DNA of 64,000 nt. It comes from a virus (taxonomy: Duplodnaviria; Caudoviricetes). The notes beneath the pieces were generated by a model that was not told the origin of the DNA, searched no databases, and worked only from the letters and a program-made list of their open reading frames with translations. Each line of letters opens with the position of its first letter. Position 1 is the stretch's first letter. Shown in pieces: positions 16,246-58,896 of the stretch. Location: the IMG/VR virus record IMGVR_UViG_2588253903_000005, positions 1 through 64,000 of that record. One strand, written 5' to 3'. Both the position numbers and the translations under genes were made by a program.

Positions 16246-16311
16246 TCCAACCCCGGCATTTCTGCCGGACGCTCCCAACTTAATGGACTTTTTAGAGCCG
16301 TTGGGACGGCT
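16246..16311 (-). ncRNA. Pistol self-cleaving ribozyme
   Basis: AGCCG-UCCCAA-CGGCU-CUAAAAAG-UCCA-UUAA-GUUGGG-AGCG-UCCGGC-AGAAAU-GCCGGG-G^U-UGGA; P1, pseudoknot, P2, P3 and the GU site are all in canonical order. Confidence 0.92.
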
Positions 16312-20654: not shown

Positions 20655-20680
20655 GATGCAAAAGACGGAGGAATTTGAAC

Positions 20681-21475
20681 ATGGCTACATACGCATATTA
20701 CAGAGTGTCAACAAGAACACAGGTAGAGAAGAACAGTACGGACATGCAGAAGAACGTCGTAAAGGAATATTGCGAAGAAAACGGTCTGGTGCTTGACGGA
20801 ACATTTGAAGATGACGGAATATCCGGCGCAATGGACGATATGGAGGATAGCATAGCGAGAAATGGTCTGATAGAACTTTTCTCAACCACACAAGAGGGTG
20901 ACACAATCATTGTGCAGAACACATCAAGGTTGTGGCGTTCTGATACGGCAAAGGTCATTATCCGTAGGGAAATTAAAAAGTGTGGGGCAAACTTAGTAAG
21001 TGTTGAACAGCCTAATTATGACATTTACAAGAAAGACCCTAACGACTTTCTAATAAACGGTCTTTTGGAGCTGCTTGACGAATACGACAAAATCTCAATC
21101 GCTGTCAAACTGGCAAAAGGCAGAAAGGCAAGAGCAAAGACAGGAAACAAACCTTGCGGTAATGCTCCGATAGGCTACCGCTGGAACGGAAACAAGATCG
21201 AAATTGACTATAACAATCACTTGATTGTACAGGATATATTCAATATGTGTTTAGAACGCAAAGGGAATTTAAGTCAGATTATGCGTGACTGTGCAGAAAA
21301 GGGATATAAGACCACTAGAGGAAAAGATTTCAGCGTACAGGCTATCAAGAATATTCTGACGAATGATTTTTATGTTGGTGTTGTAACCCATGCAGGAAAT
21401 AAGATAGCAGGAGAACATCAACCGATTATTGAAAAGCCGGTATTTGAAAAAGTCATTGAGATTTTGAGAGGGTAG
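20681..21475 (+). CDS. Serine recombinase (resolvase plus recombinase domain)
   Basis: YAYYRVST, DDGISG, QNTSRLWRS, PIGY, ILTNDFYVG. Confidence 0.9.
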   Translation: MATYAYYRVSTRTQVEKNSTDMQKNVVKEYCEENGLVLDGTFEDDGISGAMDDMEDSIARNGLIELFSTTQEGDTIIVQNTSRLWRSDTAKVIIRREIKKCGANLVSVEQPNYDIYKKDPNDFLINGLLELLDEYDKISIAVKLAKGRKARAKTGNKPCGNAPIGYRWNGNKIEIDYNNHLIVQDIFNMCLERKGNLSQIMRDCAEKGYKTTRGKDFSVQAIKNILTNDFYVGVVTHAGNKIAGEHQPIIEKPVFEKVIEILRG

Positions 21476-21484
21476 GTATACGGT

Positions 21485-21841
21485 ATGGTTTATGGGTATG
21501 TGAATAGGCGCAAAGGCGAAACAAAAGATTATTTACATGGCAGAGAATTTGACGAAATATTTTATCAAGACGGAGCAGAATACGATTTGTCTTTTCTGAA
21601 ACAAGGAGACACAATAATACTTTGCAAGCTAAAAAGTATAAGCGATAATTTGAAAGATATTCTCGTATTTGCTCAATACGCATTTGACAACGAGATAGAA
21701 GTCCGCTGTATGGATAAAAACGATGACAAATATATTGATTTCATAGATACAAGTACAGCAATGGGGAAATTGATAATAGGTCTATGGGCAGGAATAAATA
21801 GGCTAGACGATGAATACTACAGAAATTCAGAAAATAATTAA
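21485..21841 (+). CDS. Resolvase N-terminal-like protein lacking the catalytic serine
   Basis: YGYVNRR in place of YxRVS; retains LKQGDTIILCKL and IDTSTAMGKLI. Confidence 0.6.
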   Translation: MVYGYVNRRKGETKDYLHGREFDEIFYQDGAEYDLSFLKQGDTIILCKLKSISDNLKDILVFAQYAFDNEIEVRCMDKNDDKYIDFIDTSTAMGKLIIGLWAGINRLDDEYYRNSENN

Positions 21842-23007: not shown

Positions 23008-23055
23008 TTCAGCCGAAAGGCTATATAAAAATTAAAGTTTAGGAGGGATTTGTCT

Positions 23056-23697
23056 ATGACGACTGAAACCATGACCGTGCATAAGGCTCTGGCAGAATTA
23101 AAGCTGCTTGACATCCGGATTGAGAAAGCAATCGCAGAAGGTGTTTACTGCGTTGCGAACAAACATTCAAACGATAAGATAGGCGGCGTTCCGCTTGATG
23201 ATTACATTAAAATCATGCAGGGCGGATATGACAAGGCAACTGACTTTATCAACCGTCAAACGGCAATAAAACGAGCAGTCACACTTTCCAATGCTGTAAC
23301 CAAAGTCGAAATTTCTGGCGTGGAATATACAAGAGCAGAAGCCATTTGGATGAAAAATCACGGAATGGAATTTTGCAAAACACTTATGAATGCTATGCGG
23401 AGACAATATGATAAGGCTCAAATGCAAATCAATCTGGAAAACGGAAAAGACCTTGAACAGAGGGCAGAGCAGTATGTAACCGCAATCTACGGGCAGAAAG
23501 AAGGAAAGACAAATACTGCTGACATCGAAAAGGTCAAGGCAGACTTTTTAAAATCCAACCAGTACGAACTGGTTGACCCGCTCCACGTCCTTGACAAGAT
23601 TGAAGATTTGGAGAAGAAAATCAATGATTTCATGGCAGAAGTTGACAGCTCATTATCGGTCAGCAACGCCTTAACCGAAATCACGATTGAATATTAA
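23056..23697 (+). CDS. Coiled-coil protein, probable partner of the downstream ncRNA
   Basis: TVHKALAELKLLDIRI; SNA(V/L)T motif twice; VDPL; from memory loosely like DIP1984/DUF6847 proteins (unverified). Confidence 0.85.
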   Translation: MTTETMTVHKALAELKLLDIRIEKAIAEGVYCVANKHSNDKIGGVPLDDYIKIMQGGYDKATDFINRQTAIKRAVTLSNAVTKVEISGVEYTRAEAIWMKNHGMEFCKTLMNAMRRQYDKAQMQINLENGKDLEQRAEQYVTAIYGQKEGKTNTADIEKVKADFLKSNQYELVDPLHVLDKIEDLEKKINDFMAEVDSSLSVSNALTEITIEY

Positions 23698-23715
23698 AAA
23701 TTAAATGAATTTTAT

Positions 23716-24107
23716 CCACTGTTTACCGAAAACCCCAAACTACAATTCATACGTCTTTTGCAGATACAGACATATGTAAAACAATAAAGAAATCTGCAAA
23801 CTTCAATGGACGAAGATAATATGAATTGGTCTTGAAAACCAAATTTGCATAAACAATGTGTCGGCGGTTCGATTCCGTCCAAGTCTTCGGACTTGTAGCT
23901 CAGTCGGGAGAGCGATTGTAAAAACAAAACGCACTGTAAAGATTAAAGAGTAAAGCTCAAATCTTAAAGCTGAAAGGTCAAAGTTTATTTTCTTCAAAGT
24001 TGAAAGAGCAAAGGTAAAAGACAAAAGTTTTACAAAATCCTTGGGAAATGTTTATTCGGGCTAATTGTAATTGCTGATGGGTTTAACACAAGGCTGGTAA
24101 ATGGTGG
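23716..24107 (+). ncRNA. ~390-nt structured ncRNA with permuted tRNA module, anticodon-arm mimic and heptamer array
   Basis: 13-bp 5'/3' helix (23716-23728 with 24095-24107), nested AAACCC/GGGTTT and TACAATT/AATTGTA helices; no coding ORF on +. Confidence 0.85.
23937..24029 (+). repeat. 12 tandem heptamers, consensus NAAAGNN (7 + 5, split by a 9-nt U-rich linker)
   Basis: TAAAGAT TAAAGAG TAAAGCT CAAATCT TAAAGCT GAAAGGT CAAAGTT [TATTTTCTT] CAAAGTT GAAAGAG CAAAGGT AAAAGAC AAAAGTT. Confidence 0.9.
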
Positions 24108-24157
24108 GTTATATGAATTATCGGCGGCAGCTTGTTGGTCTCGTTGCCGCCGGTTTT

Positions 24158-24249
24158 GCAGATATAACCCTAACTGGTAAGGGAACGGTTTGCTAAACCG
24201 TCAGTAACCGTCAAATGACGGCGCGTAGGTTCAAGTCCTACTATCTGCG
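24158..24249 (+). tRNA. tRNA-Ser(GCU)
   Basis: GCAGATA/TATCTGC acceptor, ACGGT-TTGCTAA-ACCGT, long variable arm, T-arm. Confidence 0.92.
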
Positions 24250-25775: not shown

Positions 25776-25848
25776 AACAACGGGATAGCCCGACGGGGCG
25801 AAAAGCAAAACCGTGATTGCCTGTCCGTTGTTTCAACTAATATCACGG
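25776..25848 (+). ncRNA. Candidate pseudoknotted RNA
   Basis: Long stem 25776-25788/25821-25832; loop CCGTGAT complementary to ATCACGG at 25842. Confidence 0.45.
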
Positions 25849-26487: not shown

Positions 26488-26538
26488 CAATAGGCTAGGG
26501 TAGCTCCCAAAAAGCGTCCTCCAACGCCTGCCTATTGT
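26488..26538 (+). promoter_or_regulatory. Three-way-junction leader upstream of the replication initiator
   Basis: CAATAGGC/GCCTATTG, GGG-TAGCT-CCC and GCGT-CCTCCA-ACGC helices. Confidence 0.45.
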
Positions 26539-26583
26539 TTTTATAAATTTGGAGGATTAGAAAAATGGATTGGAGGTCATTTT

Positions 26584-33398: not shown

Positions 33399-34601
33399 AT
33401 GAGTGATTTAAAAATATTTACAGAAAACATAGAACCGCAGGCATTAAATCAGATTTACACGCTGATTAAGCAACCGGCATTTGCGGATTGCAAAGTGCGT
33501 ATCATGCCTGACGTACACGCCGGAGCTGGATGTGTTATCGGTTTTACTGCTGATTTGGGAGATAAGGTAATTCCAAACATCGTCGGAGTGGATATTGGCT
33601 GCGGCATGGAAACTGTAGAACTTGGCAACACAGACATAGACCTTGCAAAACTCGACGAGGTAATCAGAAAATATGTTCCGAATGGCAGAAATGTGCATGA
33701 AACAGAAGATAACTTTTCGGAAATCATCATCAATCAGCTTTATTGCGAAGACCGCCTAAAAAACGTGGATTGGTTGAAAAGAAGCTGCGGTACGCTTGGC
33801 GGAGGAAATCATTTTTGCGAAGTGGACATTGACGATGACGGAAATAAATACCTTGTCATTCATTCGGGAAGTCGGAACATTGGAAAGCAGGTTGCGGAAA
33901 TTTATCAGCAGATGGCGATTGACGATTTAAGCGGAGCGAACAGCCTTGAAGAAGAAACAAAGAAACTGATTGAAGATTACAAACGGACAGGCAGACACAA
34001 GGATATTCAGAGAGGGATTGCGGAGTTAAAACGGAAATTTCAGCCGAAAATTAGTGTGCCAAAAGAATTATCCTATCTGACAGGCGAACACAGGGAAATG
34101 TATCTGCACGACATGAAGTTGTGTCAGAAATTCGCAAGTGAAAATAGATACAGGATTGCAAAAGAAATATCTTATGGCATGGGCTGGGATATAGATAGAT
34201 TTTCAAATGGATTTGAAACAATCCACAACTACATTGAGCATGACACAAACATCGTCCGCAAGGGCGCAATATCGGCGAAAGAGGGCGAAACAGTCCTAAT
34301 TCCTATCAATATGCGTGACGGCTGTATTATCGGCAGGGGAAAAGGTAATGCAGACTGGAATTATTCAGCGCCGCATGGGGCAGGACGGATAATGAGCCGT
34401 AGCAAAGCAAAAGAAACGGTATCGCTGGAAGAATTTGAACAGTCCATGCAAGGAATTTATACAACATCTGTTAATCGGTCAACGATTGATGAAAGCCCTA
34501 TGGCATACAAGCCGATTGAGGAAATTGTAGCGAATATACAAGATACGGTTGAAATCATGAAGATTATCAAGCCGATTTATAATTTTAAGGCGAGTGAGTG
34601 A
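33399..34601 (+). CDS. rtcB: RNA ligase RtcB
   Basis: MPDVHAG, VGVDIGCG, GTLGGGNHF, HSGSR, HN, RKGA, HGAGR, DESPMAYK. Confidence 0.97.
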   Translation: MSDLKIFTENIEPQALNQIYTLIKQPAFADCKVRIMPDVHAGAGCVIGFTADLGDKVIPNIVGVDIGCGMETVELGNTDIDLAKLDEVIRKYVPNGRNVHETEDNFSEIIINQLYCEDRLKNVDWLKRSCGTLGGGNHFCEVDIDDDGNKYLVIHSGSRNIGKQVAEIYQQMAIDDLSGANSLEEETKKLIEDYKRTGRHKDIQRGIAELKRKFQPKISVPKELSYLTGEHREMYLHDMKLCQKFASENRYRIAKEISYGMGWDIDRFSNGFETIHNYIEHDTNIVRKGAISAKEGETVLIPINMRDGCIIGRGKGNADWNYSAPHGAGRIMSRSKAKETVSLEEFEQSMQGIYTTSVNRSTIDESPMAYKPIEEIVANIQDTVEIMKIIKPIYNFKASE

Positions 34602-58680: not shown

Positions 58681-58896
58681 TAGACAGGAGGATTCTTTCC
58701 ATACCTTTAATGAAAATTGGTGTATGGAATTTAGTTTATTATAAAGAAAAATACAGAAGAGCTGGCATACCTAACTATGAAGAAAAGCTTGTTAATGTTG
58801 GTTACATCTGGGGATAGGCTGACGAGCCGAAAAGTACAAGCCTTAGTACCTGCCCCGGTTTGACATAAGGCAGTTTGCGGAAAGGCGGTAAAGAGC

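What the first reader, a model, noticed from the sequence alone, without database searches (positions are those of the whole stretch)
23853..23919. Near-canonical circularly permuted tRNA with acceptor stem sealed by UUCG
The order is ACAAT (anticodon-stem 3' strand), GTGTC variable loop, GGCGG-TTCGATT-CCGTC T-arm, CAAGTC-TTCG-GACTTG acceptor, TA, GCTC-AGTCGGGA-GAGC D-arm, G, ATTGT. It cannot be aminoacylated and joins the rest of the RNA through the anticodon stem. The T-acceptor-D topology is that of bacterial YrlA Y RNAs, which are normally linked to Ro60/RtcB, but no Ro60 gene is in the window.
Basis: partly seen in the sequence, partly recalled or inferred. Interest (0 to 1): 0.85.

Follow-up and report, generated by a model that had tools for sequence, protein, structure and literature searches.

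The report
Back-to-front tRNA mimic in phage RNA
A gut phage carries a sealed, back-to-front copy of a tRNA body as an optional add-on inside a larger 394-base structured RNA, in a setting with no Ro60 protein, so it resembles the known YrlA tRNA mimics but must work with a different partner.

Summary
Window 23853-23919 (+) is a circularly permuted tRNA body: anticodon-stem 3' strand, variable loop, T arm, 6-bp acceptor hairpin capped by UUCG, D arm, anticodon-stem 5' strand. All elbow nucleotides are canonical. Sixteen phage and bacterial versions pair in 95.8% of cells with strong covariation.

It matches only the tRNA-like core of Rfam YrlA (36.3 bits, cut-off 69). The Ro60-binding helix is absent. 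The apparent GNCGAAG motif belongs to a small local hairpin. No TROVE gene was found in the phage record or in 201 sampled genomes of the probable host family (Lachnospiraceae).

The module is an accessory insert in the variable middle of a 394-nt RNA (23715-24108). That RNA is closed by a covarying 12-bp helix, and Rfam's RAGATH-27 is only its 5' quarter. It follows a phrog_1491 gene, as in phage T5.

Among about 60 relatives of this RNA, only two sub-lineages carry the module. Both belong to the one clade that encodes RtcB ligase (window 33399-34601).

Best reading: a Ro60-independent tRNA-elbow decoy or handle in phage-host conflict over tRNA damage. The function is inferred, not shown. The scan has seen permuted tRNA mimics elsewhere.

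The parts
23853..23857 (+). Anticodon-stem 3' strand (ACAAT); pairs with 23915-23919
   Evidence: The stem covaries: ACAAT/ATTGT here against CAGAA/TTCTG in the L029 type.
23858..23862 (+). 5-nt variable loop GTGTC (G46 and C48 equivalents)
   Evidence: Identical to the variable loop of a phage tRNA-Phe.
23863..23879 (+). T arm GGCGG-TTCGATT-CCGTC
   Evidence: A compensatory C-G to U-A change is seen in L201.
23880..23895 (+). Closed acceptor hairpin, 6 bp plus a UUCG tetraloop
   Evidence: Relatives have UGCG, or 7 bp with GAGA or AAGA; all seven pairs covary across the set (hairpin pairing was a selection criterion).
23896..23914 (+). U8-A9, D arm GCTC-AGTCGGGA-GAGC, and G26
   Evidence: D stem 100% paired, nearly invariant.
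23915..23919 (+). Anticodon-stem 5' strand (ATTGT)
23826..23842 (+). Separate anticodon-arm-like hairpin TTGGT-CTTGAAA-ACCAA, 10 nt upstream of the module; optional
   Evidence: Its stem covaries with GCAGA/TCTGT in the L029 type and it is deleted in L198 and L200. The loop is the same as in the phage tRNA-Ser(UGA).
23801..23815 (+). Small hairpin CUUCA-AUGGA-CGAAG that contains the apparent GNCGAAG motif
   Evidence: RNAalifold pairs 12-26 and 16-22 covary (CG/AU and AU/GC). An equivalent hairpin is kept in module-less Dulem virus 39.
23715..24108 (+). Whole 394-nt scaffold RNA that carries the module
   Evidence: Closing helix P1 23716-27/24096-107 is 99.6% paired with 4 covarying pairs. P2 23742-48/24063-69 is 100% paired with 2 covarying pairs and crosses P3 24041-45/24088-92. 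MFE z-score is -3.98.
23715..23798 (+). RAGATH-27 (RF03100) match; the 5' quarter of the scaffold RNA
   Evidence: 92.1 bits against a cut-off of 76.1.
23934..24029 (+). About 12 heptads (NNNAAAG), conserved in all relatives, just 3' of the module
23050..23697 (+). Gene of a 215-aa helical protein (phrog_1491) that precedes the RNA
   Evidence: phrog_1491 at E 3e-50. Present in 742 phage records including T5. AlphaFold pLDDT 94.5 with no PDB fold match.
33399..34601 (+). RtcB RNA ligase gene
   Evidence: PF01139 at 203.6 bits; phrog_1075.

Best explanation
The element is a sealed, circularly permuted tRNA body (T arm, closed acceptor, D arm) that folds into the tRNA L-shape elbow. It has no anticodon loop and no free 3' end. 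It is an accessory module plugged through its anticodon stem into the variable middle of a 394-nt phage scaffold RNA. That RNA is encoded next to a phrog_1491 helical protein.

Inferred mechanism: the module presents a tRNA elbow that cannot be cleaved or charged to a tRNA-recognising factor. It could act as a decoy or competitive inhibitor of a host tRNA-targeting nuclease, or as a handle that brings a tRNA-binding enzyme such as the phage RtcB ligase to the particle. Either way it would belong to the phage's kit for conflicts over tRNA damage, together with its own tRNAs and RtcB, and it would work without Ro60.

Shown: the structure, its conservation, its optional presence, the absence of Ro60, and its restriction to the RtcB-bearing clade. 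Inferred: expression, the binding partner and the function.
For: Structure and covariation are established. The elbow nucleotides are invariant across 16 versions.

The module lies inside a scaffold RNA that is closed by covarying helices P1 and P2.

Its presence is optional. It was found in only 2 sub-lineages of 66 RAGATH-27 loci. Dulem virus 39 has a clean deletion of it.

The two sub-lineages differ in every acceptor and anticodon stem pair yet keep the pairing, which indicates selection for the fold.

No TROVE gene is in the phage records or in 201 genomes of the probable host family. No DUF2828 or Band-7 gene is in the phage.

RtcB is present in all 3 module-bearing records and in Dulem virus 39. 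It is absent from the 53 other records that carry this RNA.

Published proposals exist for the YrlA tRNA-like domain: an inhibitor of an anticodon nuclease (PMC7790460) and a binding site for an elbow-recognising effector (10.1101/312249).
Against: No transcript, binding or processing data could be obtained; both tools that could have supplied more were unavailable.

The RtcB association rests on one clade. RtcB is 79% identical between the two sub-lineages, so this is effectively a single evolutionary event.

Five other phage records with TROVE-less modules have no RtcB, including one complete 372-kb genome.

Most members of the scaffold RNA family do without the module, so it is dispensable for the scaffold's core role.
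Confidence: 0.5

Rival explanations
1. It is a structural or stability module only. A compact tRNA fold nucleates folding or protects the variable arm of the scaffold RNA from nucleases, with no specific partner.
For: The variable region holds unrelated structured inserts in other lineages. The acceptor is capped by ultra-stable UNCG or GNRA loops. Wang et al. raise nuclease protection as a possibility for YrlA (10.1101/312249).
Against: Invariance of all elbow nucleotides and of the D-stem sequence goes beyond what a generic stable hairpin needs.
Confidence: 0.17
2. It is an RNase P (and CCA-adding enzyme) processing site that splits the scaffold RNA in the acceptor loop, as in M. smegmatis YrlA.
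For: The L029 type has a 7-bp acceptor followed by A. M. smegmatis YrlA with a 7-bp stem is cut by RNase P (PMC4201824).
Against: The window type has only 6 bp sealed by UUCG or UGCG, with no leader, discriminator or CCA. Stem length and loop differ between the sub-lineages, so cleavage is not the conserved feature.
Confidence: 0.1
3. It is a decaying by-product of a tRNA-gene rearrangement: one tRNA followed by the 5' half of a second, with no function of its own.
For: In the L029 type the upstream stretch plus the shared T arm scores 35.8 bits as a tRNA. The body is closest to tRNA-Phe, with 22 of 22 identities in the variable loop and T arm. Tandem tRNAs give similar but weaker model hits.
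Against: Compensatory changes keep the permuted fold in two diverged sub-lineages, while the upstream 'first' 5' half is degenerate or deleted.
Confidence: 0.1
4. It is a true YrlA Y RNA that works with a Ro60 supplied by the host.
For: There is a YrlA core match. GACGAAG at 23809-15 fits the GNCGAAN0-1G motif (PMC4201824). RtcB is in the phage.
Against: The score is 36.3 against a cut-off of 69, and model positions 1-22 and 86-114 are unmatched. The motif is one strand of a local covarying hairpin and reads GGGTGAAG in three relatives. TROVE is absent from the phage and from 201 host-family genomes.
Confidence: 0.05

Closest known systems
YrlA (Y RNA-like A; Rfam RF02553; Chen et al. 2014, PMC4201824; Wang et al. 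2018, 10.1101/312249)
   Same: The order is the same: T arm, loop-closed acceptor stem, D arm. The same elbow nucleotides are present. The module connects to the rest of the RNA through the anticodon-stem equivalent. It occurs in phages, and RtcB is in the same genome.
   Different: There is no Ro60-binding terminal helix. No TROVE gene is in the phage or the sampled host family. The score is below the Rfam cut-off. The module is embedded as an optional insert in an unrelated 394-nt RNA with a different neighbouring protein (phrog_1491).
RAGATH-27 RNA motif (Rfam RF03100)
   Same: The host RNA's first 84 nt match it above the cut-off (92.1 bits).
   Different: The Rfam model covers only the 5' quarter. 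Its 'unpaired' 5' part forms helices P1 and P2 with a 3' domain about 370 nt away. The tRNA module lies outside the model.
GOLLD RNA with tRNAs inside its variable region (Weinberg et al. 2009; recalled from my own knowledge, not checked here)
   Same: Both are large phage-associated structured RNAs that sit beside tRNA genes and carry a tRNA-type element in a variable region.
   Different: There is no Rfam GOLLD or ROOL match. Here the element is permuted and sealed, not a normal tRNA.
Permuted tRNA genes of Cyanidioschyzon merolae and two-piece (permuted) tmRNA genes (from my own knowledge)
   Same: The 3' half is encoded upstream of the 5' half.
   Different: Those are processed into functional molecules that can be charged. 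Here the acceptor ends are joined by a 4-nt tetraloop with no discriminator or CCA, and there is no anticodon loop. ARAGORN finds no tRNA or tmRNA at this site.

Membership tests
YrlA (RF02553) | tRNA-like domain in the order T arm, closed acceptor stem, D arm, with tRNA tertiary nucleotides | tested here: met
   Model positions 23-85 align at 36.3 bits. Supported by covariation, RNAalifold and ARAGORN on the re-ordered halves.
YrlA (RF02553) | Reaches the Rfam gathering score over the full model | tested here: not met
   36.3 bits against 69, and only positions 23-85 of 114 match.
YrlA (RF02553) | Long terminal helix with the Ro60-binding GNCGAAN0-1G motif on its 5' strand | tested here: not met
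   GACGAAG (23809-15) is the 3' strand of a local 5-bp hairpin that covaries. It reads GGGTGAAG in L195, L196 and L200. No partner 3' strand was found.
YrlA (RF02553) | Encoded next to a Ro60/Rsr (TROVE) gene | tested here: not met
   No TROVE in the 75.6-kb record or in the relatives' records, which are 81% and 93% complete. None in 201 genomes of the Lachnospiraceae-labelled family. The DUF2828 search of the phage found nothing, but its control did not ring.
YrlA (RF02553) | Genomic linkage with RtcB | tested here: inconclusive
   RtcB is 9.5 kb downstream, not adjacent. Within this RNA family the module occurs only in the RtcB clade, but that is one lineage.
Functional tRNA / permuted tRNA gene | Anticodon loop, free acceptor ends with a discriminator, and processing to a molecule that can be charged | tested here: not met
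   The acceptor is closed by a 4-nt loop and no anticodon loop sits between the stem strands. ARAGORN calls nothing in native order.
RAGATH-27-containing scaffold RNA | RAGATH-27 5' domain, closing helix P1, heptad array, 3' domain, downstream of a phrog_1491 gene | tested here: met
   The same layout is seen in T5.

The most novel reading that the evidence does not exclude
The phrog_1491 protein and its 394-nt RNA form a phage ribonucleoprotein that, in the RtcB-bearing clade, has acquired a tRNA-elbow module and so acts as a Ro60-independent analogue of the Ro60-YrlA particle. It would couple a tRNA mimic to RNA repair, or block host anticodon nucleases.
Probability: 0.2. Interest if true: 0.8.

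Novelty: new variant of a known kind. Interest (0 to 1): 0.55.

Why it matters
YrlA-type tRNA mimics have been defined by their partnership with Ro60, and their effector is still unknown. Here the same sealed tRNA body is kept by selection where Ro60 is absent from both the phage and the sampled host family. It is grafted onto a different, widespread phage RNA, and it is found only in the clade that also carries RtcB.

This separates the function of the tRNA-like domain from Ro60. It also offers a natural with/without comparison for finding what the elbow binds: the window phage against Dulem virus 39. In addition, it shows that the orphan Rfam motif RAGATH-27 is a fragment of a larger modular RNA.

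Tried and rejected
1. I first read the conserved 5' part of RAGATH-27 as a promoter. The scan found none, and the segment pairs with the 3' domain as P1 and P2, so I rejected that reading.

2. I considered GACGAAG as a Ro60 motif and rejected it.

3. I considered an alternative fold in which an upstream strand pairs with the acceptor hairpin (tRNA-Sec 24.6 bits in the window; tRNA 35.8 bits in L124). The covariation favours the permuted fold, and L198 and L200 lack the upstream arm.

4. I looked for a host tRNA source of the 3' half in 61 family genomes with one mismatch allowed, and found none. The tRNA-Phe likeness rests on phage tRNAs only.

5. Model R1 run on 151 bacterial genomes mostly hit tandem tRNAs, so it gave no usable census.

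6. The fold of the phrog_1491 protein had no PDB match by sequence or by Foldseek.

7. Single-sequence MFE folding does not reproduce the cloverleaf (z about -0.8), which is usual for tRNAs.

Metagenome records could not be searched whole.

9. The Burroughs and Aravind 2016 paper is not held.

Full report
**Observation.** The sequence at 23853-23919 (+) reads exactly as described. The segments are:
- ACAAT, the anticodon-stem 3' strand
- GTGTC, the variable loop
- GGCGG-TTCGATT-CCGTC, the T arm
- CAAGTC-TTCG-GACTTG, the closed acceptor
- TA
- GCTC-AGTCGGGA-GAGC, the D arm
- G
- ATTGT, the anticodon-stem 5' strand

U8, A14, G15/C48, G18, G19, A21, G53-C61, T54-A58 and C56 are all canonical. ARAGORN finds four ordinary tRNAs in the window but nothing here. 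When I put the two halves back in tRNA order in a script, with a borrowed loop, ARAGORN called a 76-nt cloverleaf; the native order gave none. Rfam's YrlA model aligns its positions 23-85 to 23855-23917 (36.3 bits, E 2.4e-6, cut-off 69). The flanking Ro60-binding helix of the model (positions 1-22 and 86-114) finds no match.

**Conservation.** Pattern scans found relatives of two types.
- The window type comprises L195, L196, L198 and L200 from metagenomes, and L201 from a MAG labelled Lachnospiraceae.
- The L029 type comprises L029/L124/L125/L180, L194, L197 and L199.

The two types differ in nearly every acceptor and anticodon stem pair but keep the pairing:
- Acceptor: CAAGTC/GACTTG with UNCG, against TAAGTCC/GGATTTA with GAGA or AAGA.
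- Anticodon stem: ACAAT/ATTGT against CAGAA/TTCTG.

L201 has a compensatory C-G to U-A change in the T stem. I aligned 16 versions, including nine other phage modules (A3). In that alignment 95.8% of cells pair and 15 of 21 pairs change on both sides. No shuffle out of 500 reached the observed score, and slid controls fell to about 40% paired. Acceptor hairpin pairing was a selection criterion; the anticodon and T stems were not. RNAalifold on nine relatives predicted the permuted cloverleaf by itself. Conserved G-U pairs place the RNA on the + strand.

**Context.** The window is an IMG/VR provirus record (75.6 kb, 82% complete) with all genes on the + strand. The module lies in a 460-nt gene-free stretch between a 215-aa ORF (23050-23697) and tRNA-Ser. 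RAGATH-27 (RF03100) matches 23715-23798.

Alignment of relatives shows four parts in order:
- a conserved 5' domain
- a hypervariable middle
- a conserved array of about 12 NNNAAAG heptads (23934-24029)
- a conserved 3' domain

- P1 (23716-27 with 24096-107) is 99.6% paired with four covarying pairs.
- P2 (23742-48 with 24063-69) is 100% paired with two covarying pairs. It crosses P3 (24041-45 with 24088-92), which gives a pseudoknot topology.

The module therefore sits inside a 394-nt structured RNA (23715-24108; MFE z -3.98). The upstream protein is phrog_1491, mislabelled 'tail fiber'. It occurs in 742 phage records including T5. It belongs to a large family of uniform length and has a confident helical model without a PDB match. 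T5 has the same RNA layout after its homologue, but without a tRNA module.

**The module is optional.**
- Of 66 RAGATH-27 loci in IMG/VR, only the window and the L029/L180 lineage hold it.
- Dulem virus 39, the closest named relative, has a clean deletion of the module and the upstream hairpin.
- Other lineages have unrelated AT-rich inserts at the same place.

Ten nucleotides upstream of the module lies a separate hairpin (23826-23842) with the loop CUUGAAA. This is the same loop as in the phage's own tRNA-Ser(UGA). Its stem covaries between the two types, and it is deleted in L198 and L200. So the hairpin and the module are independent accessories.

**Is it YrlA?** The defining features from PMC4201824 are the tRNA-like domain, a terminal Ro60-binding helix carrying GNCGAAN0-1G, and a neighbouring Ro60 gene. 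Only the first is met.
- GACGAAG at 23809-15 fits the motif, but it is the 3' strand of a local hairpin (CUUCA-AUGGA-CGAAG).
- The base and top pairs of that hairpin covary between the types.
- An equivalent hairpin survives in module-less Dulem virus 39.
- Three relatives read GGGTGAAG.
- TROVE is absent from this record and from the L029-type records, which are 81% and 93% complete.
- TROVE is also absent from 201 genomes sampled from the family of the MAG that carries the prophage.
- No DUF2828 or Band-7 gene is in the phage. The DUF2828 control did not ring, so that result is weak.

Of ten other phage records with such modules, four do encode TROVE. One complete 372-kb phage has neither TROVE nor RtcB. 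Two Lachnospiraceae-family genomes carry true modules in other contexts (L204 and L205). TROVE-less permuted tRNA mimics are therefore recurrent.

**Link to RtcB.** The phage encodes RtcB at 33399-34601. So do the L029-type phages and Dulem virus 39. None of the 53 other records with this scaffold RNA has RtcB, including 21 that are at least 90% complete. The two module-bearing sub-lineages share a 79% identical RtcB. The co-occurrence is therefore one lineage event. It is suggestive, and it parallels the bacterial rsr-yrlA-rtcBA linkage, but it is not statistical support.

**Origin.** The body is most like tRNA-Phe. One phage tRNA-Phe matches 22 of 22 positions in the variable loop and T arm and 16 of 19 in the D arm. 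In the L029 type the upstream stretch plus the shared T arm still scores as a degenerate tRNA (35.8 bits). This fits an origin from a tRNA followed by a second 5' half, after which selection kept the permuted fold.

**Mechanism.** The following are shown:
- an L-shape-competent, sealed tRNA body
- purifying selection on the fold and the elbow
- accessory status on a scaffold RNA
- no Ro60
- restriction to the RtcB clade

The function is inferred. The module presents a tRNA elbow that cannot be cleaved at an anticodon or charged. It may sequester a host tRNA-targeting factor or recruit a tRNA-binding enzyme. Both ideas have been published for YrlA (PMC7790460; 10.1101/312249; PMC7824862).

No expression data could be obtained, and no further loci could be fetched.

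I rate this a new variant of a known kind. The scan has reported permuted tRNA mimics on other DNA.

Noticed in passing
window 23715-24108: Rfam's RAGATH-27 is only the 5' quarter of a 394-nt RNA. Its 'unstructured' 5' part forms covarying long-range helices P1 and P2 with a 3' domain, and P2 crosses P3 in a pseudoknot topology.
   Followed up: yes
window 23934-24029: About twelve NNNAAAG heptads in strict 7-nt register are conserved at the nucleotide level in all relatives and recognisable in T5. They probably form a single-stranded protein-binding strip.
   Followed up: partly
L202 (T5 AY692264.1) 1501-2142 and 2143-2510: The T5 homologue of the phrog_1491 protein lies on the strand opposite to the annotated T5p083. 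It is followed by an unannotated RNA with the same closing helix and heptads.
   Followed up: partly
L124 3742-3905 (same as L029 and L180): Two 5' halves compete for one 3' half. An upstream degenerate tRNA (35.8 bits, anticodon loop CUUGAAA, 28-nt insert) shares its T arm with the permuted module. This could be a fossil of the module's origin or an alternative fold.
   Followed up: partly
L204 1501-1569; L205 1501-1568 (minus strand): True permuted tRNA modules (66 bits with my model) occur in two genomes of the Lachnospiraceae-labelled family, in contexts unrelated to RAGATH-27. The family sample has no TROVE.
   Followed up: partly
L023 / L112 (372-kb complete phage record): A module is flanked by AGGTTTCCTACAGCA...GAAACCT stems, and a second RNA with the same stem motif lies about 150 nt downstream, like a YrlA/YrlB pair. 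Yet the complete record has neither TROVE nor RtcB.
   Followed up: partly
window 24124-24160: An 8-bp GC-rich hairpin (15-nt loop, short T run) lies between the scaffold RNA and tRNA-Ser(GCU). It is a possible terminator or processing element and was not flagged by the consensus scan.
   Followed up: no
window 16246-16311 (-); 25778-25848, 26488-26555, 58807-58871 (+): There is a pistol ribozyme match on the minus strand of an otherwise plus-strand genome, and three int-alpA RNA matches.
   Followed up: no
window 20675-21841: A serine recombinase (Resolvase plus Recombinase domains) is followed by a 118-aa partial resolvase-domain ORF.
   Followed up: no
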